Below, in pieces: positions 14,492 to 38,109 of a stretch of DNA of 64,000 bases (position 1 is the stretch's first letter; each line of letters opens with the position of its first letter). The stretch comes from Candidatus Obscuribacteraceae bacterium (lineage in GTDB: Bacteria > Cyanobacteriota > Vampirovibrionia > Obscuribacterales > Obscuribacteraceae): positions 125,462 through 189,461 of the forward strand of contig JBGASG010000010.1 of assembly GCA_044229845.1 (NCBI GenBank), written 5' to 3'. Under the pieces are notes generated by a model that made no database searches, was not told the origin of the DNA, and saw only the letters and a list, made by a program, of their open reading frames with translations. The position numbers and the translations under genes are program-made.

Positions 14492-14499
14492 ATGCACCC

Positions 14500-16011
14500 C
14501 TAGAACTGGAAGTAAATGAAGGGAACGGAGCGATGCGGCGCCAGGGCCACAATCATGAAGGCGCAAGCGGCAGCGAGCACGACACGAACGGCTATCGGTC
14601 TGGCGAGATCGCTGAAAAAGGGCAGTTCGACCGGTGCCGCAAGTTTCTCATCGCTCTGCTCATTGGCGCGCTCATACATCGAACGAGCAATGAAGACGCC
14701 ACCATAGAGGGTGCAGGCGACCGGCAGGACCGACTGCCAGAATTGCCGCCACAAAGACCCATCGACCAGCGAGGAGTGGGCGGGTCCGGTGACCAGTCCG
14801 GAGAAGATCTGCAAGCCCTGCGTCATGTTTTCACAGCGGAACAGATTGAATCCCAGGCAAGCAAAAATGAAGGTGGCTGCCACCGAAAGCAAGTGATAGG
14901 GCTGCGAGTTCCTGAGGGCAGTCAACGCAGGATTGGCGTTAACCAGCTTTTCGTAAAAACGGTGCACCACAAGACCGAAGCCGTGGAACATGCCGAAAGC
15001 GACGAAGTGCCACGCGGCGCCATGCCAGAGCCCGCAAAGAAACATGGTGATCAGCAGGTTGGCGGCCATCCAGAATTCGCCGCTGCGCGAACCACCCAGC
15101 GGAATGTACACGTAATCACGCAACCAGTTCGACAGAGTCATGTGCCAGCGCCGCCAGAAATCTTTGACGTTATTGGCGAGCAGGGGTAGATTGAAGTTTT
15201 CAGGCAACCTGTAACCGAGCACCAGCGCCGACCCTCGCCCGATGTCGGTATATCCGGAAAAATCGAAGTAGAGCTGACAGCAAAATGCGATGATGCAAAT
15301 CCAGGCATCCGGCAATGACATCGCCGTTGGTGCCTTATATCCGGCTTGCACGATCGCAGCCAGGTTGTCGCCGAGCACGACCTTTTTGAAAAGTCCCTGC
15401 AAAATCAGGATCAGTCCTTGCTGGAACATGGCGCCATCGAACTTTGCCGGCTCAGCAAGCTGGGGATCGAAGTCTTGAAAGCGCTTGATCGGCCCTGCGA
15501 TCTGCGATGGGAAGAAAGCCGCGAACACACCAAAGCGAATCGGATTTTTGATCGGCTTGGTGCCCTGGAAAATGTCCACCAGGTAGTGAATGAATTCGAA
15601 AACGAAAAACGAGATGCCCAGCGGAAGGATAATCGGCAGGTCTTCCATGCCGGTCGTCAGAGGCTTGCCGAGATGCGCCAGATGACTTACGAAGCCGCCC
15701 ATATTATTGAGCGCATCCAGTATGAAATTGGTGTATTTGAAGAGCGCCAAAAGCCCAAGATTTAGCGTGATGCCGCCAATCAGAACCAACCGCCGATAAG
15801 TTTTGGACTGCAGTCGCGCCAGGAGCAGCCCCAGCAAATATGTTGCGACCGTCATACCAATCAGCAATACGCCGCATATCTTCGACCAGCTCATGTAGAA
15901 AACATAGCTGGCGACCAGCAGAACGATTGCCTTCAGCTGGCGCGGCACGAGCCAATAAATGGCGAACACCGCAGGCAGAAAAAGCAGATATTCGAGGCTG
16001 TTGAAGAGCAT
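14500..16011 (-). CDS. MBOAT family O-acyltransferase (AlgI/DltB-like)
   Basis: MLFNS, LPLGISFFVFE, FFPSQIAGPIKR, DFSGYTDI, FWRRWH, GLWHGA, FIYFQF. Confidence 0.95.
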   Translation of the reverse strand: MLFNSLEYLLFLPAVFAIYWLVPRQLKAIVLLVASYVFYMSWSKICGVLLIGMTVATYLLGLLLARLQSKTYRRLVLIGGITLNLGLLALFKYTNFILDALNNMGGFVSHLAHLGKPLTTGMEDLPIILPLGISFFVFEFIHYLVDIFQGTKPIKNPIRFGVFAAFFPSQIAGPIKRFQDFDPQLAEPAKFDGAMFQQGLILILQGLFKKVVLGDNLAAIVQAGYKAPTAMSLPDAWICIIAFCCQLYFDFSGYTDIGRGSALVLGYRLPENFNLPLLANNVKDFWRRWHMTLSNWLRDYVYIPLGGSRSGEFWMAANLLITMFLCGLWHGAAWHFVAFGMFHGFGLVVHRFYEKLVNANPALTALRNSQPYHLLSVAATFIFACLGFNLFRCENMTQGLQIFSGLVTGPAHSSLVDGSLWRQFWQSVLPVACTLYGGVFIARSMYERANEQSDEKLAAPVELPFFSDLARPIAVRVVLAAACAFMIVALAPHRSVPFIYFQF

Positions 16012-20656: not shown

Positions 20657-22789
20657 ATGACCAACGACGGAAAAGAGCTTAGGCTCGGTCCTGGAACCGT
20701 AATCGACAATCGATTCGAAATTGTCGCGTTTCTCGGTGCAGGCGGAATGGGCTCGGTCTATCGAGCCAGACAACTGGAATTCAATCGTGATGTCGCAATC
20801 AAATTTCTGCATCGCCGATTTTGCGAGGACGTCTCAGCCGTAAAGAGATTTCAAAGAGAAGCCAAAATCGTTGCCAAGCTTCAGCACAAGAACATACTAA
20901 CGGCATACGCATTTGGAGGTTTCGAAGGACACATCTATTTAGCGACAGAGTTCGTCGGAGGGCGCTCGCTCGGGGCAATGATCCACGAACGGGGTCCAAT
21001 TCCACCCGAGCAAGCACTTCCGCTGTTAGTGGACATCTGTGATGCGATGCAGTACGCGCACCAACAAGACGTTTTGCACCGAGATCTGAAACCAGACAAT
21101 GTACTAATCGTTGCTGAGCCCGGTAAATCTGCCACGGCAAAGGTGCTGGACTTCGGTCTTTCCAAACTACTTGGGTCGAATAATGCAGGAAAACTGACAC
21201 GGACGGGAGAAGTAGTTGGAGACCCCCGCTACATGAGCCCGGAACAATGCCAAGGACAAAGGTTGGACGAAAGATCCGATATCTACTCGTTTGGTTGCCT
21301 GATGTATGAGGTTCTTTCTGGAGTGTGGCCTTTCGAAAGAGATGATGCTGTGGCAATCATGCAGTGTCACCTTTCGCACCAACCAGAATCGTTTGCTCGT
21401 CGCTTGGGATTGCCGTTGGCGCTGGAGGCGATCTGTTTCACGGCAATGTCCAAAAGGCCCAACGACAGATTTGAGTCATTTGACGCGTTGAGCAAACACC
21501 TGAAAGACGTTCTGGCAAATCCCAATCTGACCATAGCAATGCCATCAAGGCACGGAGCGAGACCCAAGCTAGCAATTCGGCCATTAGCACTGGCTTCAGT
21601 GCTAATTTCGATAGTGGCGGGAATCGCCTTGCTGGCATTTGCACCCCCGGACATATGGCTCGCCCGCATACAAAATGCTCTACCCACAGACACTAAAACC
21701 AACTTGGAAAATTCCCTCAAGCTCGCCGCATTCCACTTCGGAAGAGGCGACCTAGAAGAGTCTGCTAGCTTGTACACGAGCGCACAGCATTTAGCAGAAG
21801 AGCTACGAAACGATGAAGCCTCCCTGCTGAGTACATCAGGTTTGGTGTCGGTGCGTGTTCAACAGCACGACGACAAGGAGGTCGTTTCCACTTGCGAACT
21901 GCTGCTTGCTGAGGGAGTGCAGCTTTTGAAAGGACCTGGCGCGCCAGCAGAAACTGCAAACAGTGCCATCAGAAATGGAGTATCCGAGCTAATAAGGCTG
22001 AATCCGAGTGAAGCATTGCCACTCTCCCGTGAGCTTGCCGATCTATACAAAGCTCGAAAATTGAATGGTGATGCAAGAAAGATACTGGAACTGATCGCAC
22101 CAGTCGGCGGAGACGTGGAGCGAGCCAACAACTATTTCGCGCTTGGACAACTCGCTCTTCAGGATGCCGACAAGACGGCTGCGGCCTCGTACTTCGACCG
22201 GGCTATCTCTACCGCTCCTGGAGGCTCTTATAGAATGTTAATCATGCAGCTAGTCGGCTCCGCACTGATGACAGCCGGCGACTTCAAAAGTGCTTTGGAA
22301 TATTGGAAAAAATTGGAAGTCGATGTAAAAGGAAAAGCGTATCCCGGGCGTTCTCAGCTGTACATGTGCATGGGTGACTGCTACGCAAACCTTCATGAAC
22401 TTCCGCCGGCAAGGGATTTCTATAGCGCTGCGGTTTCTATTGAGGAGCAAAAGCAAACTCCCTCTTACGCCATTCTTGTTCCCAGCGTTCATGGTGCGGG
22501 GCTGAGTGAATTCGCTCTTGCTGACTTTGCAAGCGCCGAGCAGTCTTTCAAAAAAGAGATTCAAATACTGGAGAGTCAGCCCTCGAAAGACGAGAGGCAG
22601 CTCATACAGGCAATGTCAATGCTCGGTGACTCTCTGACTTTTCAAAAGCGGGAGCAAGATGCCCATACACAATTTGAACGAGCTCTAGAATTGATTCAAA
22701 ATTCGAGAGCCGGAGCTGGACTCGAATCAATTCGTCAAAGTTTGGTTCAGAAGCTGGCACGAACCAGCGCCACCAGCGCTGGACACTGA
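20657..22789 (+). CDS. Ser/Thr protein kinase with TM and TPR repeats
   Basis: GAGGMG, VAIK, HRDLKPDN, DFG, GDPRYMSPEQ; TPR-like repeats after the TM. Confidence 0.93.
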   Translation: MTNDGKELRLGPGTVIDNRFEIVAFLGAGGMGSVYRARQLEFNRDVAIKFLHRRFCEDVSAVKRFQREAKIVAKLQHKNILTAYAFGGFEGHIYLATEFVGGRSLGAMIHERGPIPPEQALPLLVDICDAMQYAHQQDVLHRDLKPDNVLIVAEPGKSATAKVLDFGLSKLLGSNNAGKLTRTGEVVGDPRYMSPEQCQGQRLDERSDIYSFGCLMYEVLSGVWPFERDDAVAIMQCHLSHQPESFARRLGLPLALEAICFTAMSKRPNDRFESFDALSKHLKDVLANPNLTIAMPSRHGARPKLAIRPLALASVLISIVAGIALLAFAPPDIWLARIQNALPTDTKTNLENSLKLAAFHFGRGDLEESASLYTSAQHLAEELRNDEASLLSTSGLVSVRVQQHDDKEVVSTCELLLAEGVQLLKGPGAPAETANSAIRNGVSELIRLNPSEALPLSRELADLYKARKLNGDARKILELIAPVGGDVERANNYFALGQLALQDADKTAAASYFDRAISTAPGGSYRMLIMQLVGSALMTAGDFKSALEYWKKLEVDVKGKAYPGRSQLYMCMGDCYANLHELPPARDFYSAAVSIEEQKQTPSYAILVPSVHGAGLSEFALADFASAEQSFKKEIQILESQPSKDERQLIQAMSMLGDSLTFQKREQDAHTQFERALELIQNSRAGAGLESIRQSLVQKLARTSATSAGH

Positions 22790-22795
22790 GAATTC

Positions 22796-25165
22796 TCAGT
22801 GCCCCGGAGAATCGCCGCTCCTGATGAGATTTGGCATGTATTTTTTTTCAATGTCGTGCCAGCTTGACTCTGCCTGTCCCGCGCGTCTAGCTGCCGCATG
22901 TGCATCTCTGCAATGCTTATCATCGTACTGAGCTTCAGCGTCGTGAAGCAGCGGAGAACGGTCGATAATCAACGCTCTCTCATACACCCTCGCAGCATCC
23001 GCCCACCTGCCTAGCTTAGTCATCGATACGGCTAGCGAGCGCAGAGAGTAGAGTTGCTGATGCGCCAACTCGACTGCCTCCTTCTGATTCGCTGCCACTG
23101 ATGACATAGCCACCAGAATCTCATATCGATGAGCGAAGGTTTTCGACGCAGTATCGAACTGCCCCGTGTTGACTTGGGAATTCCCCAGTGCCAAAAGCAA
23201 CTTTACCAGGTAAGGATTCGCTTCCGCCTCGGGATGCTCCGTTTTCTTCCAGGCTGCCATCGCCGCTTCGAATGCTTGCCGAGCCTCCAAAGCATGCCCT
23301 TGCTTCACCAAGATATCGCCTTTAGTGTTGAAGATTGCCACTTCGCTCAAATAGCTTTTCTGCGCAGACCTATTTGCAAATCCTGCAGCCTGATTCGCAT
23401 ACTTCAGAGCTTGATCATATTTTCCGGCATTGAGAAACAGCGCAGCAGCATTGTTGCAGACGCTGGCACGCGCATTATCGGTCTTGCTTAAACTAATGGC
23501 TTCATCTAAATAGCTTTGAGCGTTTGGAAAGTTTCCTTGACTAACGTCAACGGCGGCGTGATTGTATAAGTACCGAAGAGCAAGCTCCTCACTCTTCGGA
23601 GTGGTCGTGATCAGGCTCAACAGCTTTTGCGCTTTCAAATTTTGTTGGCGATTTTTATACACTTCGACAAGTGGAACAATCTCATTCTCGACGCTCTCAC
23701 CAGATGCGATGGCAGCTTTTGCCGCAAGAACTCTTTGCAGTCGCGTGTCCACGATATCGCTAGCGAGGCCAGTTTTTACCAATTGCGTCCCGTGCTTTAT
23801 TACTTGATTTGCTGCTGTCCAGTTATCATCCAGCTTGTTCTTATTCACATATTCGGCAGCTTCGTACCACGAGTTGAATTTGTCGATTTCTTGCTTGTTT
23901 TGCTCAGGAAGTTCTGCAATTTCGGCCAAAGCTGTCAGATGCGGCAGAACCTCCGTTCTCCGCTGATGCTTGTCGAGAACGGTAGCCAATTTGCGGTGCG
24001 CTTCAATCGCTTGCTCGAGTGTCGAGTTTTGCTTGTCGGCAACAACTTTGTTGTAGTAATCGATTTGCAGATTGTCGAAGTTGACGTAAAGCCATCCGGC
24101 TCCCGCCGCAGCAAGCAACACTGCCACCAGAATACCGATGTGCATCTTGGTGTAATGCCGCCGTTTCCTCGCAGGCTTTTGCTGGCTGATGCGCACGACA
24201 GTGGTGCTGTTGCGATTGATGCTGGCGAGTGCTCCAACCACTTCGTTCATTGTTTGAAAGCGGTTGTCCGGATCCTTCTCCAGACACTTAGCGATGATTC
24301 GCTCCAGATCAAGCGATACCTCCTGCCCCGGCATGGCTTCCGAGAGAAGCGGCGGTTTCTCCTGCAATTGCAGATACATGGTGGCAAGCGGCGTCTCACC
24401 TTCAAGAGGCGGATCGCCGACAATTATCTCGAACATCACACTGCCGAATGAATAGATGTCCGACCGCGCATCCAGCGGTCGCCCCGTGCACTGCTCCGGG
24501 CTCATGTAGGCAGGCGTTCCAAACACTGCGCCGGCACGCGTCAACTGCTGAACCTGCTCGCCTTCGTGGGGCATCAATTTTGCGATACCGAAGTCGACCA
24601 GTTTTACAACATCATCTTCGGCGCTTTCAAATTCGTGCACCAGCATGATGTTGCTCGGTTTGAGATCGCGGTGAACGATGCCCTGTGAGTGCGCATGTTC
24701 CAGAGCTGCTGCGGTTTGCCTGAAGATCGGCAAAGCCCGATCGACCGGCACGCGTTTGTCCTCACGAAGTATCTCGTCAAGACTGATGCCCTCGAGATAA
24801 TCCATCACCAGATACACGCCCAGCTCCGAAGCGTTGAATGCGTAGACCTGAATGATGTTGGGATGCTTGAGTTGGCTGATTGCTTTCGCTTCGTACTGGA
24901 AGCGTTGCAGCGCCTCGTGCGATGCGACGCTTCCTTTGAGCAGCATCTTCACAGCCACGATGCGGTCGAGGAAAAGATCTTTCGCTTTGTAGACGACGCT
25001 CATGCCGCCCTTGCCGAGCAGCGAGATTATCTCGTATCGCTCGTCGATTGTGGACCCAACTTGACCAAGAATGTCTTGCTCAGACTGACGCTGACCATCA
25101 GCCCGGGTAACATCTTGTTCTTGATCGGAAATCGACGTCATGTCGGTTGGTTCCTCGGGATCCAC
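22796..25165 (-). CDS. Ser/Thr protein kinase with TM and TPR repeats
   Basis: GKGGMS, VAVK, HRDLKPSN, DFG, GTPAYMSPEQ; TM IGILVAVLLAAAGAGWLY. Confidence 0.93.
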   Translation of the reverse strand: MDPEEPTDMTSISDQEQDVTRADGQRQSEQDILGQVGSTIDERYEIISLLGKGGMSVVYKAKDLFLDRIVAVKMLLKGSVASHEALQRFQYEAKAISQLKHPNIIQVYAFNASELGVYLVMDYLEGISLDEILREDKRVPVDRALPIFRQTAAALEHAHSQGIVHRDLKPSNIMLVHEFESAEDDVVKLVDFGIAKLMPHEGEQVQQLTRAGAVFGTPAYMSPEQCTGRPLDARSDIYSFGSVMFEIIVGDPPLEGETPLATMYLQLQEKPPLLSEAMPGQEVSLDLERIIAKCLEKDPDNRFQTMNEVVGALASINRNSTTVVRISQQKPARKRRHYTKMHIGILVAVLLAAAGAGWLYVNFDNLQIDYYNKVVADKQNSTLEQAIEAHRKLATVLDKHQRRTEVLPHLTALAEIAELPEQNKQEIDKFNSWYEAAEYVNKNKLDDNWTAANQVIKHGTQLVKTGLASDIVDTRLQRVLAAKAAIASGESVENEIVPLVEVYKNRQQNLKAQKLLSLITTTPKSEELALRYLYNHAAVDVSQGNFPNAQSYLDEAISLSKTDNARASVCNNAAALFLNAGKYDQALKYANQAAGFANRSAQKSYLSEVAIFNTKGDILVKQGHALEARQAFEAAMAAWKKTEHPEAEANPYLVKLLLALGNSQVNTGQFDTASKTFAHRYEILVAMSSVAANQKEAVELAHQQLYSLRSLAVSMTKLGRWADAARVYERALIIDRSPLLHDAEAQYDDKHCRDAHAAARRAGQAESSWHDIEKKYMPNLIRSGDSPGH

Positions 25166-25543
25166 TTTAGCCGTTCCCCAAACGTAGCGCTGTCCAGCAT
25201 CGCCCGCGGTGCCAGCTGCATGGTACCGGCCATGATGCCCAAAAGCAACAGCCGCACCGTGAACAGATGGCTAGGTTATCAGCCACCAGCTATGTTCACC
25301 GCACTGCAATGGCTGGAGCGGGCTCCAGCACTTCCTCTTCCAATCTTCACTCCTGCGGACCCAACCCTAGCAACCCGGGTCCTTAGCATGAGGAGTTAAA
25401 TCCACTATGCCAGCTCGGAGTCAATTTGGCAATTGGAAAGCGACCAGCCGTGTCGTTTGCGAGTTTCACCACTGCGCAATTCGCGACTTTATCAGAACAA
25501 CCGGGCACAATAGAAACAGATTCAGAGCGCAGGAGAGTTGCGC

Positions 25544-26902
25544 ATGCCGCAAATCGAAACTGGTGACTCAGAAAAGAAGCGCGATAGTCGAGACAGCGAC
25601 CATGTTGTTACTTCACACAAGGTCGCTGGAGAAAGCATCAGTGGCGAGCCGATGGCTCCCGCCTACGAGCCGAAGTTCAAGTCATTCTCGAGCGTAGCCA
25701 AGCAAGGTGTCGATCAGGTTTTGCACACTGTATCCCAGTTTTGCATTGAGGACAAGGAGCAAGGCAAGCTCATAACCGCCAATGGTGAAAAGTCAGCTTG
25801 GGAGCCAAGACCGTCGTTTATGGAGGGACTCAGGCAAGCAGTCCAGGGGCGTTCAAGAAACGAGGCAGAACTCCGCCAAGCGGAGTTTTCCATTGCGTAC
25901 ATGACTAGAAAGGCCGCTCAATTCTTCCAGGATGCTTCTAGCGACCTTGTAGATGGACTCAAACGATGCTTTGGACAGGAAAGCTCTAGCGAAAAGATGA
26001 CTGAGAGCCAGGAGTCAGCTTCTGACCGAGGTGAACCAGCTGTTCCCGCCGCCGAGCAGAGTACACCTACGCCGTCAGGAATAACTGATCAATCTCTGAC
26101 TGGAATTTCTGAAACTCCGAGCGTCCCAAATCAGGCTGCTCAGAGCGAATCTAGTCATCAAAACCCAGACGGGATGCGGCAAGCTGACTTGCGCGACACC
26201 GTCGATGGCGTCCTAATTGCTCAAGAACCTTCGCAAACTGGCAGTAACTGGCTGAACGAAAAATGGATTCAGGGTGAAGCCAGGAAACTGCTGGACGTGA
26301 CAAAGCAAGTGAAAGACAAGTACCTTTATGAAGAAAGTGGAAGTCTTCATCAAGTGCACAGCGTGCCCGAAGCGGTCATCTCCAACTACAGAGCTCTGCT
26401 GAACTCGCCAAAGCGCGACCAGGGTGAATTTCACACCGCGATCGCCCGCAAGCATGAAGACGGGAAGCCCGATATGCTGATGGCTTCGCCGACCTTCTTC
26501 ACGCATGGAACCAAATTGCTTATTCCGGACCGAACCCCAGACCGAAAACTGCGATTACTGCCTTACGAGCTTCATCTGTCCCCCGATATTCAGTCATTCG
26601 GCAAGGACTTCAAAGTTGAGACTTTGATGCACACGCATCCACACACCTCGGATAAGGAGCTGGATCCCAACTCTTTTAGCGGCCCCGACAAGGATCAAGC
26701 TGACTCATTCCAGAACCAAACCTCGACGACTGTCAGAAGTTTCCTGCTTACACCAGACAACAAGCTTTTGGTCTATGTGCCCAGAGAGAAACAAGCCAAC
26801 CCAAGTGGGGAGGAAGTTGGCGTCTTTCTACCGGACGGGTCCTTCAAGATTACCAATGAGAGATACAAGAAAGAATTCTCGCCCTTCTCCAAAGCAAACT
26901 AA
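25544..26902 (+). CDS. Array effector A1: shared N-terminal region plus C-terminal JAB/MPN-like (DUF4329/Tox-JAB-type) domain
   Basis: ATG 25544 after AGGAG; N-terminus homologous to A2/A3; C-terminal YEESG...HTHP...FSGPD...FLLTPDNKLLVYVP. Confidence 0.75.
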   Translation: MPQIETGDSEKKRDSRDSDHVVTSHKVAGESISGEPMAPAYEPKFKSFSSVAKQGVDQVLHTVSQFCIEDKEQGKLITANGEKSAWEPRPSFMEGLRQAVQGRSRNEAELRQAEFSIAYMTRKAAQFFQDASSDLVDGLKRCFGQESSSEKMTESQESASDRGEPAVPAAEQSTPTPSGITDQSLTGISETPSVPNQAAQSESSHQNPDGMRQADLRDTVDGVLIAQEPSQTGSNWLNEKWIQGEARKLLDVTKQVKDKYLYEESGSLHQVHSVPEAVISNYRALLNSPKRDQGEFHTAIARKHEDGKPDMLMASPTFFTHGTKLLIPDRTPDRKLRLLPYELHLSPDIQSFGKDFKVETLMHTHPHTSDKELDPNSFSGPDKDQADSFQNQTSTTVRSFLLTPDNKLLVYVPREKQANPSGEEVGVFLPDGSFKITNERYKKEFSPFSKAN

Positions 26903-26950
26903 TTCTACTGGAGACATCACCTGTATTTTCGAGAGCCTATCGATTGGTAC

Positions 26951-27448
26951 ATGCTGGTCTGTGTCGTGCTGTCCCTTGCGCTGTGCAGGGATTGCTGCTT
27001 CCTGATGGCCGTTGGTTTTTTCTCTCTGGCATCCAAGGCTTGTACTCTTCTGCTTTTTGGAAAAAGGTCGCAAATCAATCCTTGGGCGGTTCGATTTGCA
27101 ATTGGTCTTTTGCTGGGCGCCTGCAATGCGGCTGCGGTCGATCGACTTCTATGCCTGTGGGCGGACTTTGGGAAATTTGCTCATTTAGACGCTCTTGACG
27201 CCTACTTAGGATCGCTTACAAATCTTCTTCCCGCAGCGCTCGTCGAAGTGTTTCTAATATCGGTGGTTCCATTCGTCGTGTGGTGCGTGTTGGTCGGGTC
27301 CGATTTGTTAATCTTAGCCTTGCTTCGGAGATGTTCGTTTAGGCTCGTGTCTGCACTTTGCCTGATAAATCTGCCCCTCACCCTCTGGGTGGTGACAATA
27401 TTGGTCTGGGTACCCATGCATGGACATCGAGTATCCACCTATGACTGA
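26951..27448 (+). CDS. Array partner B1: small multi-TM membrane protein, candidate immunity protein
   Basis: About 4 hydrophobic segments; directly downstream of A1; possible upstream in-frame CTG start at 26921 behind GGAG. Confidence 0.55.
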   Translation: MLVCVVLSLALCRDCCFLMAVGFFSLASKACTLLLFGKRSQINPWAVRFAIGLLLGACNAAAVDRLLCLWADFGKFAHLDALDAYLGSLTNLLPAALVEVFLISVVPFVVWCVLVGSDLLILALLRRCSFRLVSALCLINLPLTLWVVTILVWVPMHGHRVSTYD

Positions 27449-27584
27449 GATACAGTTCGTATCCGCTCCCAGCAAGCATCGGACACACAGGCAAAGAAAG
27501 AGTTCTGCGAGGCCCGGATCGCTCCAGTGTCACCGCATGCGGTATCACGCGGATCGGCAAACACCGGCAGACAGAGAGCAAAGC

Positions 27585-27923
27585 ATCAATGCGGCAAAGC
27601 ACACGTTAAGTGCAGACGCCTGCAAATCTCAACCACAAAAGATTCGTTTCCTCATCCGCCATCGCCGCCCCCGATGGCTCCACTCGCACACCGCGTCGGC
27701 CAGATCAACTAGATCATCCGGGACGGAGAAAGCCCGAACTGGGGCTGGGGTGAGCAGATTACCAGGAATGTAGGCTATCCACGTATCGACCGGCGGAAGA
27801 CATATCGCACCAGAATACGGGTTGATGAAAGGGCTGAGACAGGCTGAGCCCGGTTCGGCAATTTGCTCCAAGCCGGCTCCCTACAAACATCGGGATCTGG
27901 CGCCAATCTATAGATTCCAGTTC
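27585..27923 (-). pseudogene. Deleted remnant of gene X (32265..32936) and its upstream region
   Basis: Encodes PPVDTWIAYI and VPDDLVDLADA as in X; lacks about 370 bp of internal sequence and the RBS/ATG segment. Confidence 0.85.
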
Positions 27924-28013
27924 GCGAGTTCACCAATGGGCACTTCGCGACATTATCAGAACAACCGGGCACAATAGAGATAGGGACAGATTCACAGTGC
28001 AGGAGAGTTGCGC

Positions 28014-29186
28014 ATGCCGCAAATCGAAACTGGTGACTCCGGAAAGACGCGCGACAGTCGAGATGTCGACCATGTTACTTCACACAAGGTCGCTGGAGAA
28101 AGCATCAGCGGTGAGCCGATGGCGCCCGCCTACGAGCCGAAGTTCAAGTCATTCTCTGGTATAGCCAAGCAAGGCGTAGACCAGGTTTTGCACACTGTGT
28201 CCCAGTTCTGCATTGAGGACAAGGAGCAAGGCAAGCTCATAACGGCCACTGGAGAAAAGCCAGCATACGAGCCAAGACCCTCATTCCTGGAAGGATTGAA
28301 GCAAGCGGTACAGGGGCATTCGAAGGAAGAGGCTGACCGTCTTCAAGCTGAATTCTCGATCGCTTACATGACCAGAAAGGCGACTCAATTCTTTCAAGAT
28401 GCCTCGGGCAGCATCGTTAGCGGATTTCAGCGATGCGTAGGTTTGGATGACTCAAATCAGAAAAATTCAGTAAAGCAAAACCTGGGCCTCGATCAGGAAA
28501 CTGGACAGCAAACGATAACCATCGGCAAGAGAACATATCCAGCGTCTGACATAACCGGCCAATCTCTGGCGCAGATGTCTGATGTCCCAAATCAAACAGT
28601 GCCCGACGAATTGGAACATCGCAAGTTCGACTCCGGTGGAAAATGGATTTCAGCTTACCAAATTGATTACTCTGGGAAGAAGCCATTTTCGGGTGCGCCA
28701 GATGATGTCTTTGTGATCACAGCCGAGGGCCATCCGGGAAAACTGATGAAAGAGAGTCGACTTTGGGTTTTGGATGGCGAGCGGCTAAGCCTCCACACCC
28801 TTTCCGCGCTTGTTGTACACCTGCCAGAGCGGCGCTTTTTTCCATCGGGGCGACGTCTGTTGCTTGTGAATGCATGCAAGAGCGGAAAGTCTGTCGAAAG
28901 TTCAGGCGATGAAATGATCGAGCCAGGAATCTCGGGACGAAGTGCTGCAGCTCAGTTGGCAGTATTGTCCGACAGTTGGACTATTGGCGCGGCCGGTGAT
29001 ATCAATTCAGATACTGGTGAGGTTTACACGATAGGAAACCTGGGGCAACACGTTCCATCGAAATGGATATTATTCGATCCCAAAGGAATCCCTCGCTTGG
29101 AATTCGGCGCAAAAATGACAGAGGAAGATTGGCAAAGAGCCGAATCTCTGTCCCGAAAGAAGTTGGACTGGGCGGAGCAGCGCTAA
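28014..29186 (+). CDS. Array effector A2: shared N-terminal region plus caspase/C80-like cysteine-peptidase-type domain
   Basis: VFVITAEGHPG...LLLVNACKSG...AAAQLA...KWILFDP pattern; ATG 28014 after AGGAG. Confidence 0.7.
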   Translation: MPQIETGDSGKTRDSRDVDHVTSHKVAGESISGEPMAPAYEPKFKSFSGIAKQGVDQVLHTVSQFCIEDKEQGKLITATGEKPAYEPRPSFLEGLKQAVQGHSKEEADRLQAEFSIAYMTRKATQFFQDASGSIVSGFQRCVGLDDSNQKNSVKQNLGLDQETGQQTITIGKRTYPASDITGQSLAQMSDVPNQTVPDELEHRKFDSGGKWISAYQIDYSGKKPFSGAPDDVFVITAEGHPGKLMKESRLWVLDGERLSLHTLSALVVHLPERRFFPSGRRLLLVNACKSGKSVESSGDEMIEPGISGRSAAAQLAVLSDSWTIGAAGDINSDTGEVYTIGNLGQHVPSKWILFDPKGIPRLEFGAKMTEEDWQRAESLSRKKLDWAEQR

Positions 29187-29929
29187 TGGCAGGGGCGATT
29201 GCCATCACGGATGATTTCAACGAAGCCTACCCATGCGAAGACTCTTGGGCTGCAGTGTTCGTCCTTCCCGCTATCGTAACCACCGTGCCGTTCATGTTGC
29301 TATTACCGTCTGTTCAGGCTTTCGCTTCGCCCTTTTGTGAACTGTCGTACCCGGTTACTTTCATTTGCTGCATTCCTTGGCTAAGGCATATTTTGAGGGC
29401 TGCGCGTTTCTTGCTTTTTTCGTCAGACTTGACGGCAGTCGCCAGGTTTTTCTCCATGCTCGCCATCGCGGGTCTCGCCTTCAATGCATTAGTCCAAATC
29501 GCATCTGGAATACTATTCGACATCGCACGCCATCAATTAGGACCTGTTTTCCACGAGGACAATTTCGTCCAAACGATGGTGTTTGTCGTGCTGGCTGTAG
29601 TGGGATCTTTTTATGGCACGTGCTACTTGGTTCACAGAATCAAACAACAGAGATTGTTGTCGGTGAGTTCGGAGATTGGCACCTCGACTATCCTTTTCTT
29701 GGCATCAATACTTCCAGCTGCTTCAATATTTGTCGTCTATCTTGCCGCAGAGCATATCCCTAGTTTGGCCGGAGTAATCCGCGCTGTGGGAAGTAGTTCC
29801 ATCACCTACATTTACTACTTCGGTCTGGCTTTGTCTTACCTTATGACTTTCGGTGGACTCAAGCTAGTCAGCGCGGATCGGCAAGCATCGGCAGAAAGCA
29901 AGGCATCAATCCGGCAAAGCACACGCTAA
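29186..29929 (+). CDS. Array partner B2: about 6-TM membrane protein, candidate immunity protein
   Basis: TAATG stop/start overlap with A2; hydrophobic; homologous to B3 (YYFGLALSYLMTFGGLKL). Confidence 0.75.
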   Translation: MAGAIAITDDFNEAYPCEDSWAAVFVLPAIVTTVPFMLLLPSVQAFASPFCELSYPVTFICCIPWLRHILRAARFLLFSSDLTAVARFFSMLAIAGLAFNALVQIASGILFDIARHQLGPVFHEDNFVQTMVFVVLAVVGSFYGTCYLVHRIKQQRLLSVSSEIGTSTILFLASILPAASIFVVYLAAEHIPSLAGVIRAVGSSSITYIYYFGLALSYLMTFGGLKLVSADRQASAESKASIRQSTR

Positions 29930-30244
29930 GTGCAGACGCCTGCAAATCTCAACCACAAAAGATTCGTTTCCTCATCCGCCATCGCCGCCCCCGATGGCTC
30001 CACTCGCACACCGCGTCGGCCAGATCAACTAGATCAATCCGGGACGGAGAAAGCCCGAACTGGGGCTGGGGTGAGCAGATTACCAGGAATGTAGGCTATC
30101 CACGTATCGACCGGCGGAAGACATATCGCACCAGAATACGGGTTGATGAAAGGGCTGAGACAGGCTGAGCCCGGTTCGGCAATTTGCTCCAAGCCGGCTC
30201 CCTACAAACATCGGGATCTGGCGCCAATCTATAGATTCCAGTTC
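29906..30244 (-). pseudogene. Second deleted remnant of gene X
   Basis: Nearly identical to the 27585..27923 remnant; one extra A near 30036. Confidence 0.85.
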
Positions 30245-30334
30245 GCGAGTTCACCAATGGGCACTTCGCGACATTATCAGAACAACCGGGCACAATAGAG
30301 ATAGGGACAGATTCACAGTGCAGGAGAGTTGCGC

Positions 30335-31525
30335 ATGCCGCAAATCGAAACTGGTGACTCCGGAAAGACGCGCGACAGTCGAGATGTCGACCATGTTACT
30401 TCACACAAGGTCGCTGGAGAAAGCATCAGCGGTGAGCCGATGGCGCCCGCCTACGAGCCGAAGTTCAAGTCATTCTCTGGTATAGCCAAGCAAGGCGTAG
30501 ACCAGGTTTTGCACACTGTGTCCCAGTTCTGCATTGAGGACAAGGAGCAAGGCAAGCTCATAACGGCCACTGGAGAAAAGCCAGCATACGAGCCAAGACC
30601 CTCATTCCTGGAAGGATTGAAGCAAGCGGTACAGGGGCATTCGAAGGAAGAGGCTGATCGTCTTCAAGCTGAATTCTCGATCGCTTACATGACCAGAAAG
30701 GCGACTCAACTCTTTCAAGATGCCTCGGGCAGCATCGTTGACGGATTTCAGCGCTGCTTCGGCTTGGAGAACAAGAGCGCCAAGAATGCAGGGGCGCAAA
30801 ACCTGGGCGTCGATCAGGAAACTGGACAGCAAACGATAACCATAGGCAAGAGAACATATCCAGCGTCTGACATAACCGGGCAGTCTCTGGCGCAGATGTC
30901 TGATGTCCCAAATCAAACAGTGCCAGACGAATTGGAACATCGCAAGTTCGACGCCGGTGGAAAATGGATTTCAGCTAACCACATAGATTACTCGGAGAAA
31001 AATCCATTTTCTGGTGCGCCGGATGATGTGTTCGTCATCAGTGCCGAGGGACATGCTGGAAGGCTCATGAAGGGAAATCCGACACCTTGGGTTGGCCCTC
31101 TAATTGGCGGTTTCGTTCCCGGCGAGCGCCTGAGTTACCATACGCTGGCAGCGCTGATAAACCACTTACCTGAACGGAGATTTTTCCCGTCGGGCAGACG
31201 GCTAATTCTGGTAAACGCTTGCGAAAGCGGCCAAGCCGTCGAGAGTGAGCCCAACGAACTAATCGAGCCGGGATTTTCTAAGCGGAGCGCGGCTGCGCAA
31301 CTGGCTTTAATGTCTAACAGTTGGACCATTGGCGCAGTTGGCCCTATTGAGGGTGATACTGGTAAAGCCTACAGACCGAATTTGACAGGCGAGCACGTCC
31401 CATCGAAATGGATATTGTTCGATCCTAAAGGGAATGCTCGCTTGGAATTCGGCTCAAAAATGACAGAGGAAGATTGGGCAAAAGCAGAGTCTTTAGCCCG
31501 AAAAAAACTGGACTGGGCACAGTAG
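30335..31525 (+). CDS. Array effector A3: paralog of A2 with caspase/C80-like domain
   Basis: First ~125 aa identical to A2; VFVISAEGHAG...LILVNACESG...KWILFDP. Confidence 0.7.
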   Translation: MPQIETGDSGKTRDSRDVDHVTSHKVAGESISGEPMAPAYEPKFKSFSGIAKQGVDQVLHTVSQFCIEDKEQGKLITATGEKPAYEPRPSFLEGLKQAVQGHSKEEADRLQAEFSIAYMTRKATQLFQDASGSIVDGFQRCFGLENKSAKNAGAQNLGVDQETGQQTITIGKRTYPASDITGQSLAQMSDVPNQTVPDELEHRKFDAGGKWISANHIDYSEKNPFSGAPDDVFVISAEGHAGRLMKGNPTPWVGPLIGGFVPGERLSYHTLAALINHLPERRFFPSGRRLILVNACESGQAVESEPNELIEPGFSKRSAAAQLALMSNSWTIGAVGPIEGDTGKAYRPNLTGEHVPSKWILFDPKGNARLEFGSKMTEEDWAKAESLARKKLDWAQ

Positions 31526-31535
31526 GACCACCCCT

Positions 31536-32288
31536 ATGCCGGAAACAGTTGCCATCACAGATAACTGCACCGAACCGTGTTATCCATCTGAGATTGCGTG
31601 GACGACAGTGCTCGGACTTCCCGGTTTGGTAGCTCTCGTGCCCTTTGTGTTGCTATTGCCAGCTGTTCAGGCTTTCGCTCATGAATTCGCCTACGGCAAG
31701 ATACCAGATCTGGTCATTATCATGTGCTTCATCCCTTGGCTCAGACATGTTTTGACGACTGCCCGCTTCTTACTTTTTCACTCAGGTGAAACGGCAGTCT
31801 CCAGGCTTTGTTCCTGGCTCGCGATCGCGGGTCTTGCCTTAAATGCCTACATTCAAATCGCAAGCGGCGTAGTTTTCGATCTCGCTTGGCGAATTCTAGG
31901 AACAGTTATCACTGAAGAAAATTCTGTTCAAATTATGGTGCTTGTCGCATTGGGTGTATTGGGAGCTTGCTTTGGCAGTTGGTACCTGGCACACACCATC
32001 AGACAACAGCGATCTTTGTCGATGAACTCGGAGATAGCGACCTCGACAATGTTGTTTTTGGCATCGATACTCCCAGGTGCCTCTGTATTTGCCTTGGCTC
32101 TTGTCGCGAATTTTGTCCCAGGAGTGGTCGAGATATGGCGCACTGTCGGACCTCGCTCCATCGTCTACGCTTATTACTTCGGCCTAGCTTTGTCTTACCT
32201 CATGACTTTCGGCGGACTCAAGCTGATCAGCGTGGGTCGGCAAGCATCGGGACACGGCGCAGCATCAATCCGGCAAAGCACACGCTAA
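31536..32288 (+). CDS. Array partner B3: about 6-TM membrane protein, candidate immunity protein
   Basis: Starts 10 nt after the A3 stop; paralog of B2. Confidence 0.75.
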   Translation: MPETVAITDNCTEPCYPSEIAWTTVLGLPGLVALVPFVLLLPAVQAFAHEFAYGKIPDLVIIMCFIPWLRHVLTTARFLLFHSGETAVSRLCSWLAIAGLALNAYIQIASGVVFDLAWRILGTVITEENSVQIMVLVALGVLGACFGSWYLAHTIRQQRSLSMNSEIATSTMLFLASILPGASVFALALVANFVPGVVEIWRTVGPRSIVYAYYFGLALSYLMTFGGLKLISVGRQASGHGAASIRQSTR

Positions 32289-32936
32289 GTGCAAGCTCCG
32301 GCAAATCTCAACGACAAACGGATTGGTCTCCTCATCCGCCCAGCGCAGACTCCCGGATGGCTCCACTCGCACGCCGGCATCGGCAAGATCAACCAGATCA
32401 TCCGGCACCCAACTGAGGAGAAAGCCAGAACTGAGGCTGGGGTGAGCATTTCCGGAGATATAGGCTATCCAGGTATCGACCGGCGGGAAATTTTCCACAT
32501 CGAAGAAACCACCAGAACCCATCATGGCTGCGCCATCCCACATGCTGAGGGCGGGTTCGAAATAGATAAGCGAGCCCCGAGCACCATCAGCGAGCGATAA
32601 ATCGGCGCCACGATCCCTGAGACACTCGCTGCGGCTGGCTGCCACGCGTGCCATCTCCTCACACAACAACGCATCTGTGAGACTCAACAAGCGTCCCGGC
32701 TCGGTGAAAACGAAACGGCGCAAAGGCGCACCTTGCTTGTGTGCCGACTTCTCGATCAGGCGCCACTGGCGTTCCATGTTGCGGACGTCCAGTCCGGCAA
32801 ATTTCTCAAAGAATGACCGGTCGCTAAAGCCGGGCGTCGAATCGCACGCCAGGACCGACATATCGCACCAGGCGACGGTTTCGTGAAAGGGCTGAGACAG
32901 GTCGAGCCCCGGTTCGGCAATTTGCTGCTGGACCAT
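32265..32936 (-). CDS. Hypothetical protein X (GFFDVENFPPVDTW motif), intact copy
   Basis: AGGAGG RBS, then ATG at 32936 (MVQQQIAEPG...); 223 aa; convergent 24-nt overlap with B3. Confidence 0.7.
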   Translation of the reverse strand: MVQQQIAEPGLDLSQPFHETVAWCDMSVLACDSTPGFSDRSFFEKFAGLDVRNMERQWRLIEKSAHKQGAPLRRFVFTEPGRLLSLTDALLCEEMARVAASRSECLRDRGADLSLADGARGSLIYFEPALSMWDGAAMMGSGGFFDVENFPPVDTWIAYISGNAHPSLSSGFLLSWVPDDLVDLADAGVRVEPSGSLRWADEETNPFVVEICRSLHLACALPD

Positions 32937-33033
32937 GACAAAGCCTCCTATCCAAGCCGGCTCCCGACAAACATCGGGATCTGGCGCCAGTCTAGAGTTT
33001 CCTGCGAGGTCCGGATTCCAGTTCAATTATAGG

Positions 33034-35577: not shown

Positions 35578-36651
35578 ATGCACACAACCACTTCATACCA
35601 GCAACGAATTCGCCGCGCAGCTCTGGCACTGCTGGCAGTGTCGTTACTTCCGCTCTCTACTGCGAACGTTGCGCTGGCAGCGAACGGACAACCGCTGCAA
35701 GGAAACGCCAGCGTCAATTCCGAAGCGCTGAGATTGACGCGCGGCAAACCGAGACTCCAGTCGTCAGCTGAGCAGCAAGAGGTGGTTCCAGACAGTGGTC
35801 CGATGGAACTCGGTGCGCAGGACAACAATGGTTTCTTGCAAGAGCAAAAGCCATCCACCGCAGTTGACCTCGGTGCCTTCCAGACTGCGCCCCTGAATGG
35901 CAACGCCAACAACACCACGTTACCAGGCAAGGGCACGAGCACAAGCCGCGTGCAACTCCTGTCAGACTACGACATCGAATTGATAGTGGACAGCTCGTCG
36001 TCCATGAACGAAGACGATTGCCCTGGTGGCCTCTCGCGCTGGAACTGGTGCGGAATGCAGGCGACTGAGCTGGCTCGACAAATCTCGCCTTTCGCCCGGC
36101 GCGGGTTGACGATCACCACATTTGCAGCCAAGTATTACGTCTTCGAAAATTCCAGTCCGGCAGGCATAGCCGAGCTCTTCTCCAATAAATTTTTCCGCAT
36201 CGGCACGCGGCTGGCTGAGCCGCTGGATAACCGGTTGAACTCGTTTTTCAGTCGGCGTGGTCCCGGTTCCAAACCACTGTTGATCGCAGTAATCACAGAC
36301 GGACTACCTCATCCCAAAGAGGAACCGCAGATGGTGATCAATACTTTGATTCAGGCAACTCATCAGATGAAGAGCCCCAATGAAGTCACGATTGTCTTCT
36401 TCCAGATCGGGGCGGATGATCTGAAAGGACGCGCATTCCTCAGTTATCTCGATACGTCTCTCGTCAGTCAAGGCGCCCGTTTCGACATGGTGCGCACTAT
36501 TCCTTTCAATCACCTGATGCAAGTTGGGTTAGCTCAATCACTCGTCGAATCAATTCAAGAATTCGCCGCGCGCAATCGCCCGGCAAGCCGTCCCGCAGCA
36601 GCCGCCGCCGCCAGCAAGCCACGCGCCAAGCCGAAACGCGCCGGACACTAG
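35578..36651 (+). CDS. Secreted vWA-domain protein
   Basis: Signal peptide; MIDAS motif DSSSSM, GTRL, VITDG, FFQIG. Confidence 0.85.
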   Translation: MHTTTSYQQRIRRAALALLAVSLLPLSTANVALAANGQPLQGNASVNSEALRLTRGKPRLQSSAEQQEVVPDSGPMELGAQDNNGFLQEQKPSTAVDLGAFQTAPLNGNANNTTLPGKGTSTSRVQLLSDYDIELIVDSSSSMNEDDCPGGLSRWNWCGMQATELARQISPFARRGLTITTFAAKYYVFENSSPAGIAELFSNKFFRIGTRLAEPLDNRLNSFFSRRGPGSKPLLIAVITDGLPHPKEEPQMVINTLIQATHQMKSPNEVTIVFFQIGADDLKGRAFLSYLDTSLVSQGARFDMVRTIPFNHLMQVGLAQSLVESIQEFAARNRPASRPAAAAAASKPRAKPKRAGH

Positions 36652-37046
36652 TCTTGCCAATTTTCGACTTTCAGACCCGGAACTCGGCCGAACTCTTTAA
36701 CGTTATGGGTGATCACTGTCAGTCCGCGCGCTTTAGCCTGCCCCGCCAACAGCACATCATAGGGTCCGATCGGAGTACCGGCATTCGAGAGGAACGCCCG
36801 TATCTCGCCAGCCTCTCGCGCGTCTTCCTTATCAAACTCAACGACTTGAAAAAGTAGCGCATCAAAAATGTCTAGATTGTGTTTGACTCTTTTGCTTTTA
36901 TACGCGCCGAAGAAAAGTTCATGGGCTACGATTGAAGAAATAACTACATCTGCGGGCGGTACCTTCCGCACGCGCCGAGAGATCTTCGAATCCGAATCCT
37001 TCAGCAGTGCAATAACAGCGTTGGCGTCTAGGATGTATCGCATCAA
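36648..37046 (-). CDS. vapC: VapC PIN-domain toxin
   Basis: YILDAN, HEL, GPYDVLLAGQA, THNVKEF. Confidence 0.95.
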   Translation of the reverse strand: MMRYILDANAVIALLKDSDSKISRRVRKVPPADVVISSIVAHELFFGAYKSKRVKHNLDIFDALLFQVVEFDKEDAREAGEIRAFLSNAGTPIGPYDVLLAGQAKARGLTVITHNVKEFGRVPGLKVENWQD

Positions 37047-37288
37047 TCGAACAAGGAATCCAACTCTGGGCGCTCTTGCTGTTGGATGGGTTCCTTTACC
37101 GCCGCTGCACAGTCGTCATCTAACTTACCGGCGAGCACCGTAAGCCACGACCAGTCTGCTGGAATAGGTTCAAGAATCACGGTGCTACCGTGGCGCCGGA
37201 TGCGAACCGTCTCGCAATCAAACCGGAAGTCTTTGGGCAATCTTATGGCCTGCGAACGCCCGGACCAGAATACCTTTGCCGTTTCCAT
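37043..37288 (-). CDS. vapB: VapB antitoxin (AbrB/MazE-type)
   Basis: METAKVFWSGRSQAIRLPKDFRF; 4-nt overlap with vapC. Confidence 0.95.
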   Translation of the reverse strand: METAKVFWSGRSQAIRLPKDFRFDCETVRIRRHGSTVILEPIPADWSWLTVLAGKLDDDCAAAVKEPIQQQERPELDSLFD

Positions 37289-37359: not shown

Positions 37360-38109
37360 CTATTGCCCCGCCATTTCGCGGAAGTTCTCTGCGTACATGC
37401 GAACTCCGCTTAGGATGGCGTTAATACCTTCCGTGCCCATCACCGACCCGCGAGCCTCGTTGCTGAGTTGCCCGATGTCCGTATTGCGCAAGACTTGCTG
37501 TATGCACCAGGTGCCATATTCACCGCTATTCTCAGCAAATTTAGCCTCATCTTCGGTGATACCTATGGCGCAAAAAACACCAAAGACGCCGGACGGCAAC
37601 TGGTACAAAGTATCCGGCGCTTCGTCAGCGTACCAGACAACCATGTTGGTAAGCAGCGATGGCAGTGTCACCGAGTGTGGTGACTTCATTTCGAGAATCA
37701 AACCGGGACTGAGCGTGCCTGAATAGCTGAGCAGATACGAGCACAACCGCCGCAATTGCCTGATCGGCCACAAAGATGGCTTGCTGGACTTGATCATCAG
37801 CTCGCAGCCAAATCCAGAAACTTCATCAGGTTTTTCTTGAAACCACGGATTGCTCAATCCGGACGTGACATAAACCCAGTGATCCCGTCCGGGCACAGGC
37901 GGGTGCGCGAGAATCGGAATCACCTGGTCCGCGATGGACTGGGTGATCATCCGGAAGCCGCTGTCTGGCTTGAATTCCGGGTCCGGCACGTCAGGCGGGG
38001 AGTAGTTGCGAGGAATCGGAAGAAACGTCTCGCCCAGTAGATCCGCGTAGATTTTGTTGCGCTCTTTCCAGGCGCTGCGCAGCAGTTTCTTATGGGCGGT
38101 CTTGCTCAA
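37360..38109 (-). CDS. Suppressor-of-fused (SuFu) family protein
   Basis: WVYVTSGLS, GFGCEL, WP, GITEDE motifs; starts 2 nt after the lepA stop. Confidence 0.8.
   Translation of the reverse strand: MSKTAHKKLLRSAWKERNKIYADLLGETFLPIPRNYSPPDVPDPEFKPDSGFRMITQSIADQVIPILAHPPVPGRDHWVYVTSGLSNPWFQEKPDEVSGFGCELMIKSSKPSLWPIRQLRRLCSYLLSYSGTLSPGLILEMKSPHSVTLPSLLTNMVVWYADEAPDTLYQLPSGVFGVFCAIGITEDEAKFAENSGEYGTWCIQQVLRNTDIGQLSNEARGSVMGTEGINAILSGVRMYAENFREMAGQ

What the first reader, a model, noticed from the sequence alone, without database searches (positions are those of the whole stretch)
25459..33024. Tandem array of effector + membrane-partner cassettes: candidate undescribed polymorphic toxin system
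Seen: three tandem units share the same leader and RBS. Their first genes share about 140 N-terminal aa (MPQIETGDS...EPKFKSFS...HTVSQFCIEDKEQGKLITA...QAEFSIAYMTRKA) plus a short IT(D/G)QSL...VPNQ motif near aa 190-200, then switch to unrelated C-terminal domains. Each is followed immediately by a hydrophobic gene, and the partner type changes with the C-terminal domain: B2 and B3 are homologous and go with the peptidase-like domain, while B1 is different and goes with the JAB-like domain. Known: constant N-terminus, swappable toxic C-terminus and adjacent cognate immunity gene define polymorphic toxin systems. Inference: this is such a system. Unlike orphan-CT arrays (rhs, cdi, mafB), every unit is full length with its own leader.
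Basis: partly seen in the sequence, partly recalled or inferred. Interest (0 to 1): 0.88.

Follow-up and report, generated by a model that had tools for sequence, protein, structure and literature searches.

The report
Swappable toxin-like genes in sludge bacterium
An uncultured, non-photosynthetic relative of cyanobacteria carries a family of genes with one constant front end and swappable enzyme-like back ends, mostly beside small membrane-protein genes, which looks like an undescribed bacterial weapon system whose export route and toxicity are untested.

Summary
The array is real: three A+B units, each seen at single-copy depth in three independent sludge studies. The shared ~130-aa N-terminal domain matches no Pfam or NCBIfam family. 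It defines a family with 8 copies in this genome, 12 in a same-genus Obscuribacterales genome, and weaker relatives in 27 of 103 family genomes (0 of 297 outside). It is fused to JAB-like, caspase-like (CPD-fold) and other enzyme-like C-termini that were swapped repeatedly. Eight of ten JAB/CPD loci abut a small polytopic membrane gene (background 3%).

Corrections: the array holds two C-terminal types, not three. A2/A3 carry Glu where relatives carry the catalytic His. Spacers are deleted remnants of a flanking gene. Cognate toxin-partner pairing is only weakly supported. No signal peptide or orphan cassettes were found.

Best reading (0.6): it works like a polymorphic toxin system with membrane immunity partners. 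No T3SS, T6SS, WXG100 or sheath marker was found, but a near-universal chromosomal VirB4/VirD4 pair is a candidate exporter (unlinked by evidence). Toxicity, protection and export are untested. New variant of a known kind; no earlier scan note covers it.

The parts
25465..25543 (+). Leader of unit 1: shared leader, promoter-like GGGCACAAT (25503-25511), AGGAG site (25531-25535)
   Evidence: (D9, D5)
25544..26902 (+). A1, 452 aa: constant N-domain (~aa 20-135), linker, JAB-like C-terminal domain (HTHP..S..D)
   Evidence: (DUF4329 E=0.025, below cut-off)
26951..27448 (+). B1, 165 aa polytopic membrane protein, candidate partner of A1
   Evidence: purifying selection vs G069 orthologue, omega 0.15
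27544..27918 (-). Remnant of gene C with about 370 nt deleted internally (spacer 1)
   Evidence: blastn, 74-80% identity to 32226-33002
27920..28013 (+). Leader of unit 2
28014..29186 (+). A2, 390 aa: constant N-domain, linker, caspase-like (CPD-fold) C-terminal domain with Cys kept and Glu at the usual His position
29186..29929 (+). B2, 247 aa polytopic membrane protein; start overlaps the A2 stop (TAATG)
29872..30239 (-). Remnant of gene C (spacer 2), nearly identical to spacer 1
   Evidence: (D2, D7, D20)
30241..30334 (+). Leader of unit 3, identical to leader 2
   Evidence: D2, D5, D9
30335..31525 (+). A3, 396 aa: N-domain near-identical to A2, divergent allele of the CPD-fold domain
31536..32288 (+). 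B3, 250 aa polytopic membrane protein, 59% identical to B2
32265..33026 (-). Gene C, up to 253 aa, conserved flanking gene of no known family; its 3' end supplies the repeat that bounds the units
   Evidence: 40% paralogue on contig C1; omega 0.02

Best explanation
A lineage-restricted family that works like a polymorphic toxin system. Step 1 (shown): a constant ~130-aa N-terminal domain is joined to interchangeable enzyme-like C-terminal domains by recombination in the linker, and the C-terminal domain usually travels with an adjacent small membrane gene. Step 2 (shown for this site): tandem stacking arose by recombination through the leader/N-domain and the 3' end of gene C, placing a divergent CPD+B allele behind an existing one. 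Step 3 (inferred): the N-domain is a Sec-independent export or chaperone-binding tag. Step 4 (inferred): the C-terminal domains damage competing bacteria, probably at the envelope, and the inner-membrane B proteins protect the producer and kin. Step 5 (speculative): the exporter is the chromosomal VirB4/VirD4 machine, with Tad pili as the alternative.
For: 8 copies among 42,166 six-frame ORFs of the genome, next best E=1.1; 12 loci in G069; 35 true members among 36 hits in 1.84 billion representatives. P0009/P0011 are 90-96% identical over the first 150 aa, then CPD vs JAB. On the N-domain tree of 40 rows the C-terminal class changes 17 times (minimum 5); well-supported branches force at least 6 changes for JAB and 4 for CPD (classes assigned by eye). 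JAB motif H-x-H-P..S..D invariant in 14 of 14, with DUF4329/Toxin-JAB1 look-alikes; both JAB and caspase-like domains are listed polymorphic-toxin domains in PMC3482391. A3 C-terminus matches CPD folds: TcdB CPD E=0.002, T6SS effector Tce1 Z 6.8, rmsd 3.4, 121 aligned. 8 of 10 JAB/CPD loci abut an 80-310 aa polytopic gene vs 30 of 895 background genes. A2/A3: N-domain dS 0.01, C-domain dS about 2, B dS 0.68. Distant members carry lysozyme-like and Cys/His amidase-like motifs with small 2-TM neighbours (by eye). Broken copies are frequent. VirB4-like ATPase in 98 of 103 family genomes and VirD4-like in 89 of 103.
Against: No toxicity, export or protection data. A2/A3 and five relatives have Glu at the His position, so protease activity is doubtful. 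Fold scores are middling (Z under 8; no Foldseek hit under E=0.001; model pLDDT 59), and Pfam JAB hits are below cut-off. Partner specificity is weak: B1 vs another JAB partner z=1.8, B3 vs another CPD partner z=3.5, while one partner family flanks both a JAB and a tandem-CPD gene (z about 12). 3 of 8 partners are convergent; 0 of 3 long members have such a partner. The nearest structural match, Tce1, was not antibacterial and lacks an immunity gene (PMC13323088). The tag is found in only 27 of 103 family genomes while VirB4 is in 98, so co-occurrence does not link them. The lysozyme and amidase labels got no library support.
Confidence: 0.6

Rival explanations
1. Exported effectors aimed at eukaryotes (algal or protist prey or grazers), deployed in parallel like Amoebophilus APD effectors; the neighbouring membrane genes are accessory or incidental, not immunity.
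For: CPD fold resembles Tce1/Tce2, TcdB and RtxA domains; Tce2 inhibits yeast, not E. coli (PMC13323088). Other members carry annexin repeats (Pfam E=2e-9), weak C70/C39 peptidase hits and kinase-like or lyase-like motifs (by eye). All units are full length, as for parallel effectors (PMC3482391 section 37). The related predator Vampirovibrio is proposed to use a T4SS on Chlorella (PMC4451040).
Against: Strong enrichment of adjacent small membrane genes, translational coupling A2-B2, B diverging with or faster than the C-domain, and cell-wall-enzyme-like motifs in distant members.
Confidence: 0.2
2. Non-exported two-gene modules: a variable membrane sensor (B) controls a cytoplasmic JAB or caspase-like enzyme (A) for signalling or anti-phage defence, the N-domain being a shared regulatory domain.
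For: No signal peptide, no known trafficking domain; membrane partners are unusual for cytoplasmic toxins; 2 of 6 family sites in the genome lie within 300 nt of Ser/Thr kinase-TPR genes; long kinase-like members are followed by kinase-like genes.
Against: Repeated swapping among unrelated folds, including cell-wall-enzyme-like ones, and allelic stacking fit an arsenal better; partners belong to several unrelated families. PADLOC was not searched.
Confidence: 0.13
3. A drifting duplicated gene pair with no conflict role; the array is a by-product of unequal crossing-over.
For: Several copies are broken; no comparison has omega above 1.
Against: All A and B comparisons show purifying selection (omega 0.09-0.44); multiple independent domain swaps; partner enrichment.
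Confidence: 0.07

Closest known systems
Polymorphic toxins with lineage-specific N-terminal domains (Neisseria MafB-N, Microscilla-N, Amoebophilus APD1/APD2; PMC3482391 section 37, read)
   Same: Lineage-restricted constant N-domain, variable C-terminal enzyme domains, several full-length copies per genome.
   Different: Those carry a signal peptide (MafB also an upstream MafA anchor and orphan cassettes); here no signal peptide, no upstream anchor gene, no orphan cassette found, and partners are polytopic membrane proteins.
Tox-JAB-2 (DUF4329) and Tox-JAB-1 toxin domains (PMC3482391, passages)
   Same: E..HxH..S..D motif at the C-terminus; DUF4329 E=1e-5 in one relative, Atlas look-alikes.
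   Different: Known ones follow RHS repeats and pair with Imm-NTF2-2 or the lipoprotein Imm65; Pfam scores here are below cut-off and partners are 4-6 TM proteins.
Tox-Caspase / C80-type cysteine protease domains; P. aeruginosa T6SS effectors Tce1 and Tce2 (PMC13323088, passages)
   Same: CPD fold, invariant Cys in 10 of 10 single-domain members.
   Different: A2/A3 have Glu at the His position; no T6SS marker found; Tce1/2 lack immunity genes and are not antibacterial.
Xanthomonadales bacteria-killing T4SS effectors (PMC6759196, PMC11253643; search listing and abstract start only)
   Same: Possible T4SS delivery of varied toxic domains through one shared recognition domain.
   Different: There the shared domain is C-terminal; here it is N-terminal, and the ATPases here score best against conjugative CD1110/CD1115-type models (below cut-off). 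Delivery is not shown.

Membership tests
Polymorphic toxin systems (PMC3482391) | Constant N-terminal region with C-terminal domains exchanged by recombination | tested here: met
Polymorphic toxin systems (PMC3482391) | C-terminal domains belong to toxin folds with intact catalytic residues | tested here: inconclusive
   JAB motif intact in A1; CPD fold in A3 at middling scores, with Glu at the His position
Polymorphic toxin systems (PMC3482391) | Linked immunity gene that changes with the toxin domain | tested here: inconclusive
   adjacency 8 of 10 vs 30 of 895; cognate specificity weak or contradicted
Polymorphic toxin systems (PMC3482391) | N-terminal signal or domain of a known secretion pathway | tested here: not met
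   no hydrophobic signal; no Pfam family over the N-domain in 36 proteins; no NCBIfam hit for A1/A3; no FHIPEP, VipB, sheath or WXG100 match in this 88%-complete genome
Classical cassette-bearing systems (Rhs, CDI, MafB) | Standalone orphan C-terminal cassettes | tested here: not met
   tblastn of A1-A3 against the genome finds C-terminal matches only in genes that also carry the N-domain
Polymorphic toxin systems (PMC3482391) | Toxicity to competitors neutralised by the partner | not testable with these tools
   needs bench work
T4SS-delivered effectors | T4SS ATPases (VirB4, VirD4) encoded by the host | tested here: met
   (superfamily level; below curated cut-offs of NCBIfam subfamilies)
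T4SS-delivered effectors | Substrate signal recognised by the coupling protein | not tested
   no test of N-domain against the VirD4-like protein was run
C80 / CPD cysteine proteases | His-Cys dyad on the caspase-like fold | tested here: not met
   A2/A3 keep Cys but have Glu at the aligned His position; other family members keep both
JAB/MPN+ metalloenzymes | E..HxH..S..D metal-binding motif | tested here: met
   (His-to-Ser spacing longer than usual; usual spacing recalled)

The most novel reading that the evidence does not exclude
The N-domain is an N-terminal substrate tag for a vertically inherited, order-wide VirB4/VirD4 type IV machine of Obscuribacterales, making this a polymorphic toxin system delivered by a domesticated conjugation-type apparatus, with polytopic membrane immunity proteins, and implying that these uncultured bacteria are contact-dependent killers.
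Probability: 0.25. Interest if true: 0.88.

Novelty: new variant of a known kind. Interest (0 to 1): 0.7.

Why it matters
Obscuribacterales occur in sludge and bioreactors (this stretch is held by 14 DNA runs from 8 studies) and the searches here found no account of their weapons. The family supplies a new candidate export tag, new partner families and testable toxin-partner pairs. If the tag is read by the conserved VirB4/VirD4 pair, it would be an exception to the statement in PMC3482391 that classical polymorphic toxins do not use T4SS, and it would bear on whether antagonism or predation is widespread in the non-photosynthetic sister group of cyanobacteria.

Tried and rejected
Complex prediction of the A3 C-domain with B3: no answer, score 0.00, partner fold uncertain; no evidence either way. 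Fold search of the N-domain model (pLDDT 73, pTM 0.41): only generic helical-hairpin matches, best Z 6.0. Profile searches of solved-structure sequences with the CPD, JAB, amidase-like and lysozyme-like alignments: nothing significant. PHROGs: 1 weak hit in 18 proteins. Metagenome scans: 8 pattern stretches, none confirmed; 4 matches, all unrelated chance hits. P0029 dropped as a repeat-protein false hit. SulA and NS4A hits on B3 are below cut-off and were rejected. Sigma-70 promoter and terminator scans at chance level. PF03135 and PF12696 searches were negative, which at first suggested no T4SS; overturned that. Assembly artefact rejected. RNA run X15 has low-depth contigs over parts of A2, B2, A3, B3 and C and none over A1/B1; contigs cannot show transcription. 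Literature searches found no description of this family; subscription journals are mostly not covered and Additional file 1 of PMC3482391 was not read. Earlier scan notes: nothing relevant. A C-domain-only alignment including the more distant CPD relative was not made, so the A3 model rests on a full-length alignment.
Full report
Observation. The window holds three tandem units at 25.5-32.3 kb, spaced 2467 and 2321 nt. Each has a shared leader with an AGGAG site, a soluble gene A (452, 390, 396 aa) and a hydrophobic gene B (165, 247, 250 aa). A1 shares residues 1-135 with A2/A3 and then diverges; A2 and A3 share their C-terminal domain at 73%, so the array has two C-terminal types. B2 and B3 are 59% identical; B1 is unrelated. 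Both spacers are copies of the reverse-strand flanking gene C (32265-33026) lacking about 370 internal nt, so the repeated unit is leader-A-B-C remnant.

Not an artefact. Of 24 runs listed, 14 DNA runs from 8 studies hold at least half of the sampled words, all from sludge, digester, fermentation or bioreactor samples. In the three DNA runs laid, the unique segments of all three units sit at flank depth and the duplicated spacer at about twice that; no contig spans the array. The family name Obscuribacteraceae is my recall; the tools call it f1.

How the array arose. Between A2 and A3 the N-domain has dS 0.011, the linker 0.28, the C-domain about 2.0, and B2/B3 0.68. Spacer 2 and the start of A3 are near-identical to spacer 1 and the start of A2. 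The C-domain and B of unit 3 are therefore an old allele placed behind a shared front end, most simply by unequal recombination through the 3' end of gene C and the leader (inference). All A and B comparisons show purifying selection (omega 0.09-0.44), none above 1.

The family. A profile of the N-domain finds 8 genes among 42,166 six-frame ORFs of this genome, next best E=1.1, and 12 loci in G069. It finds matches in 27 of 103 same-family genomes and 0 of 297 genomes of 11 other families; outside g1 and one g19 genome most matches cover only the helical part. A profile of that part gave 22 of 72 and 0 of 178. A search of 1.84 billion representatives gave 36 hits, one a false repeat protein. 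No Pfam family covers the N-domain in these 36, and A1/A3 have no NCBIfam or PHROG match. The model shows a low-confidence first 50 residues, a small beta element and a helical hairpin, with no informative fold match. There is no signal peptide.

C-terminal domains. A1 and 13 relatives share an invariant HxHP..S..D motif and a nearly invariant upstream Glu; DUF4329 and Prok-JAB hits are below cut-off and the Atlas gives DUF4329 and Toxin-JAB1 clusters at 0.91-0.92. The A3 model (pLDDT 59) matches cysteine protease domains: TcdB CPD E=0.002 with nothing under 0.001; Tce1 Z 6.8, TcdA CPD 6.0, RtxA CPD 5.3; Atlas lead Peptidase_C80 in 13% of one cluster. These scores are middling but point to one fold. 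Cys is invariant in 10 of 10 single-domain members, yet A2, A3 and five distinct relatives (plus the G069 A2 orthologue) carry Glu where others carry His, so activity is open. Other members carry tandem CPD domains, annexin repeats, and papain-like, kinase-like, lyase-like, metallopeptidase-like, lysozyme-like or amidase-like motifs; these labels are by eye from recalled motifs, with at most weak Pfam support (C70 E=0.05, C39 E=4e-4, DUF6782 E=0.002).

Swapping. P0009 and P0011 are 90-96% identical over 150 residues and then carry CPD and JAB domains; P0010/P0019 and A1/A2 behave alike. On an N-domain tree of 40 rows the class changes 17 times against a minimum of 5 and a shuffled mean of 22; supported branches force at least 6 changes for JAB and 4 for CPD. 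Left out were seven fragments, the false hit and P0047. A short L(I/L)A(Q/D/N) linker motif occurs in 21 of 39 members against 6.7 in shuffles, but the pattern was chosen after seeing the sequences.

Partners. Of 13 loci with DNA in the two genomes, 8 of 10 JAB/CPD loci and 0 of 3 long members abut an 80-310 aa polytopic gene, against 30 of 895 comparable soluble genes (criterion set after inspection; A2/A3 are not independent). Five are co-directional, three convergent. Against strict cognate pairing: among the 12 partners compared only B2/B3 and one other pair are clearly homologous, and that pair flanks a JAB gene and a tandem-CPD gene; B3 and another CPD partner align end to end but at z=3.5; B1 and another JAB partner score z=1.8. 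B3 has only six relatives in the protein collection; one presumed allele pair is discordant.

Export. No FHIPEP, VipB, phage sheath or WXG100 match was found in this 88%-complete genome. It does encode two Tad clusters, two secretins and a PilT-like ATPase, two VirB4-like ATPases and VirD4-like ATPases. The VirB4-like gene lies among housekeeping genes, downstream of two large membrane genes I read as VirB6-like by eye. It matches at E under 1e-100 in 98 of 103 family genomes, 3 of 3 of the sister family and 0 of 294 others; the VirD4-like domain in 89 of 103. Nothing links these to the A proteins, and they could serve DNA transfer. A GGG(T/C/A)A(T/C)A motif lies 34-47 nt before the start in 8 of 11 core members (by eye) and within the scanned window in 5 of 12 distant ones, against 2-3% of genes here; it may mark only that these genes have their own promoters.

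Literature. PMC3482391 (passages and section 37) lists Tox-JAB and Tox-Caspase domains, describes lineage-specific N-domains that follow signal peptides, and states that classical polymorphic toxins do not appear to use T3SS or T4SS. PMC13323088 (passages) reports Tce1/Tce2 as non-antibacterial, without immunity genes, Tce2 toxic to yeast. PMC4451040 (passages) proposes T4SS-based predation by Vampirovibrio. PMC6759196 and PMC11253643 were seen as listing and abstract start only. Seven searches found no description of this family; Additional file 1 of PMC3482391 was not read.

Verdict. The system works like a polymorphic toxin system (0.6), with eukaryote-directed effectors (0.2), an intracellular sensor-enzyme module (0.13) and drift (0.07) as rivals. 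It is not filed under any classical class, because no known trafficking signal and no orphan cassette were found. Novelty: new variant of a known kind. Interest 0.7; 0.88 if the N-domain proves to be a tag for the conserved type IV machine (probability 0.25).

Noticed in passing
L090:4257-16220 (G000 C17 20254-32220) and L091:1089-3911: Chromosomal VirB4-like gene with two large membrane genes upstream, among housekeeping genes; 73-86% identical orthologues in nearly all family genomes; a second paralogue on C13. An order-wide type IV-like machine not found in print.
   Followed up: partly
L098 (G000 C18 238264-245336): Two adjacent VirD4-like genes with long low-complexity N-termini, conserved in 89 of 103 family genomes, next to two very large repetitive proteins.
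   Followed up: partly
L087, L088, L085, L086, L089: Two Tad pilus clusters, two CpaC-type secretins and a PilT-like ATPase.
   Followed up: no
window 22796-25165 and 20657-22789: The Ser/Thr kinase-TM-TPR gene beside the array is 96-100% identical to its G069 orthologue in the kinase part but 35-65% in the TPR part; the next kinase is replaced by an inverted paralogue in G069. The genome has 102 kinase-like ORFs.
   Followed up: partly
L032:7631-11187 vs window 13214-16011: G069 has a kinase, a JAB-type family gene and a convergent 4-TM gene at a site where this window has other genes: a second variable site about 10 kb from the array.
   Followed up: partly
L036:4641-10396, L043:5144-13076, L038: Long family members ending in kinase-like domains are followed by soluble kinase-like genes, possibly decoy-type partners.
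   Followed up: no
G000 C3 260318-261798, C19 301064-302345; L001:5851-6903; L039: Several family copies are broken: frameshift, split gene, in-frame loss of the JAB core, truncation.
   Followed up: partly
window 37360-38109: SUFU-domain gene (Pfam E=6e-16) 4 kb from the array; SuFu domains are listed among immunity proteins in PMC3482391.
   Followed up: no
window 36648-37288: Two small overlapping genes that look like a PIN-domain toxin-antitoxin pair (by eye).
   Followed up: no
window 32265-33026: Gene C is strongly conserved (omega 0.02), has no Pfam or NCBIfam match and one 40% paralogue on contig C1.
   Followed up: partly
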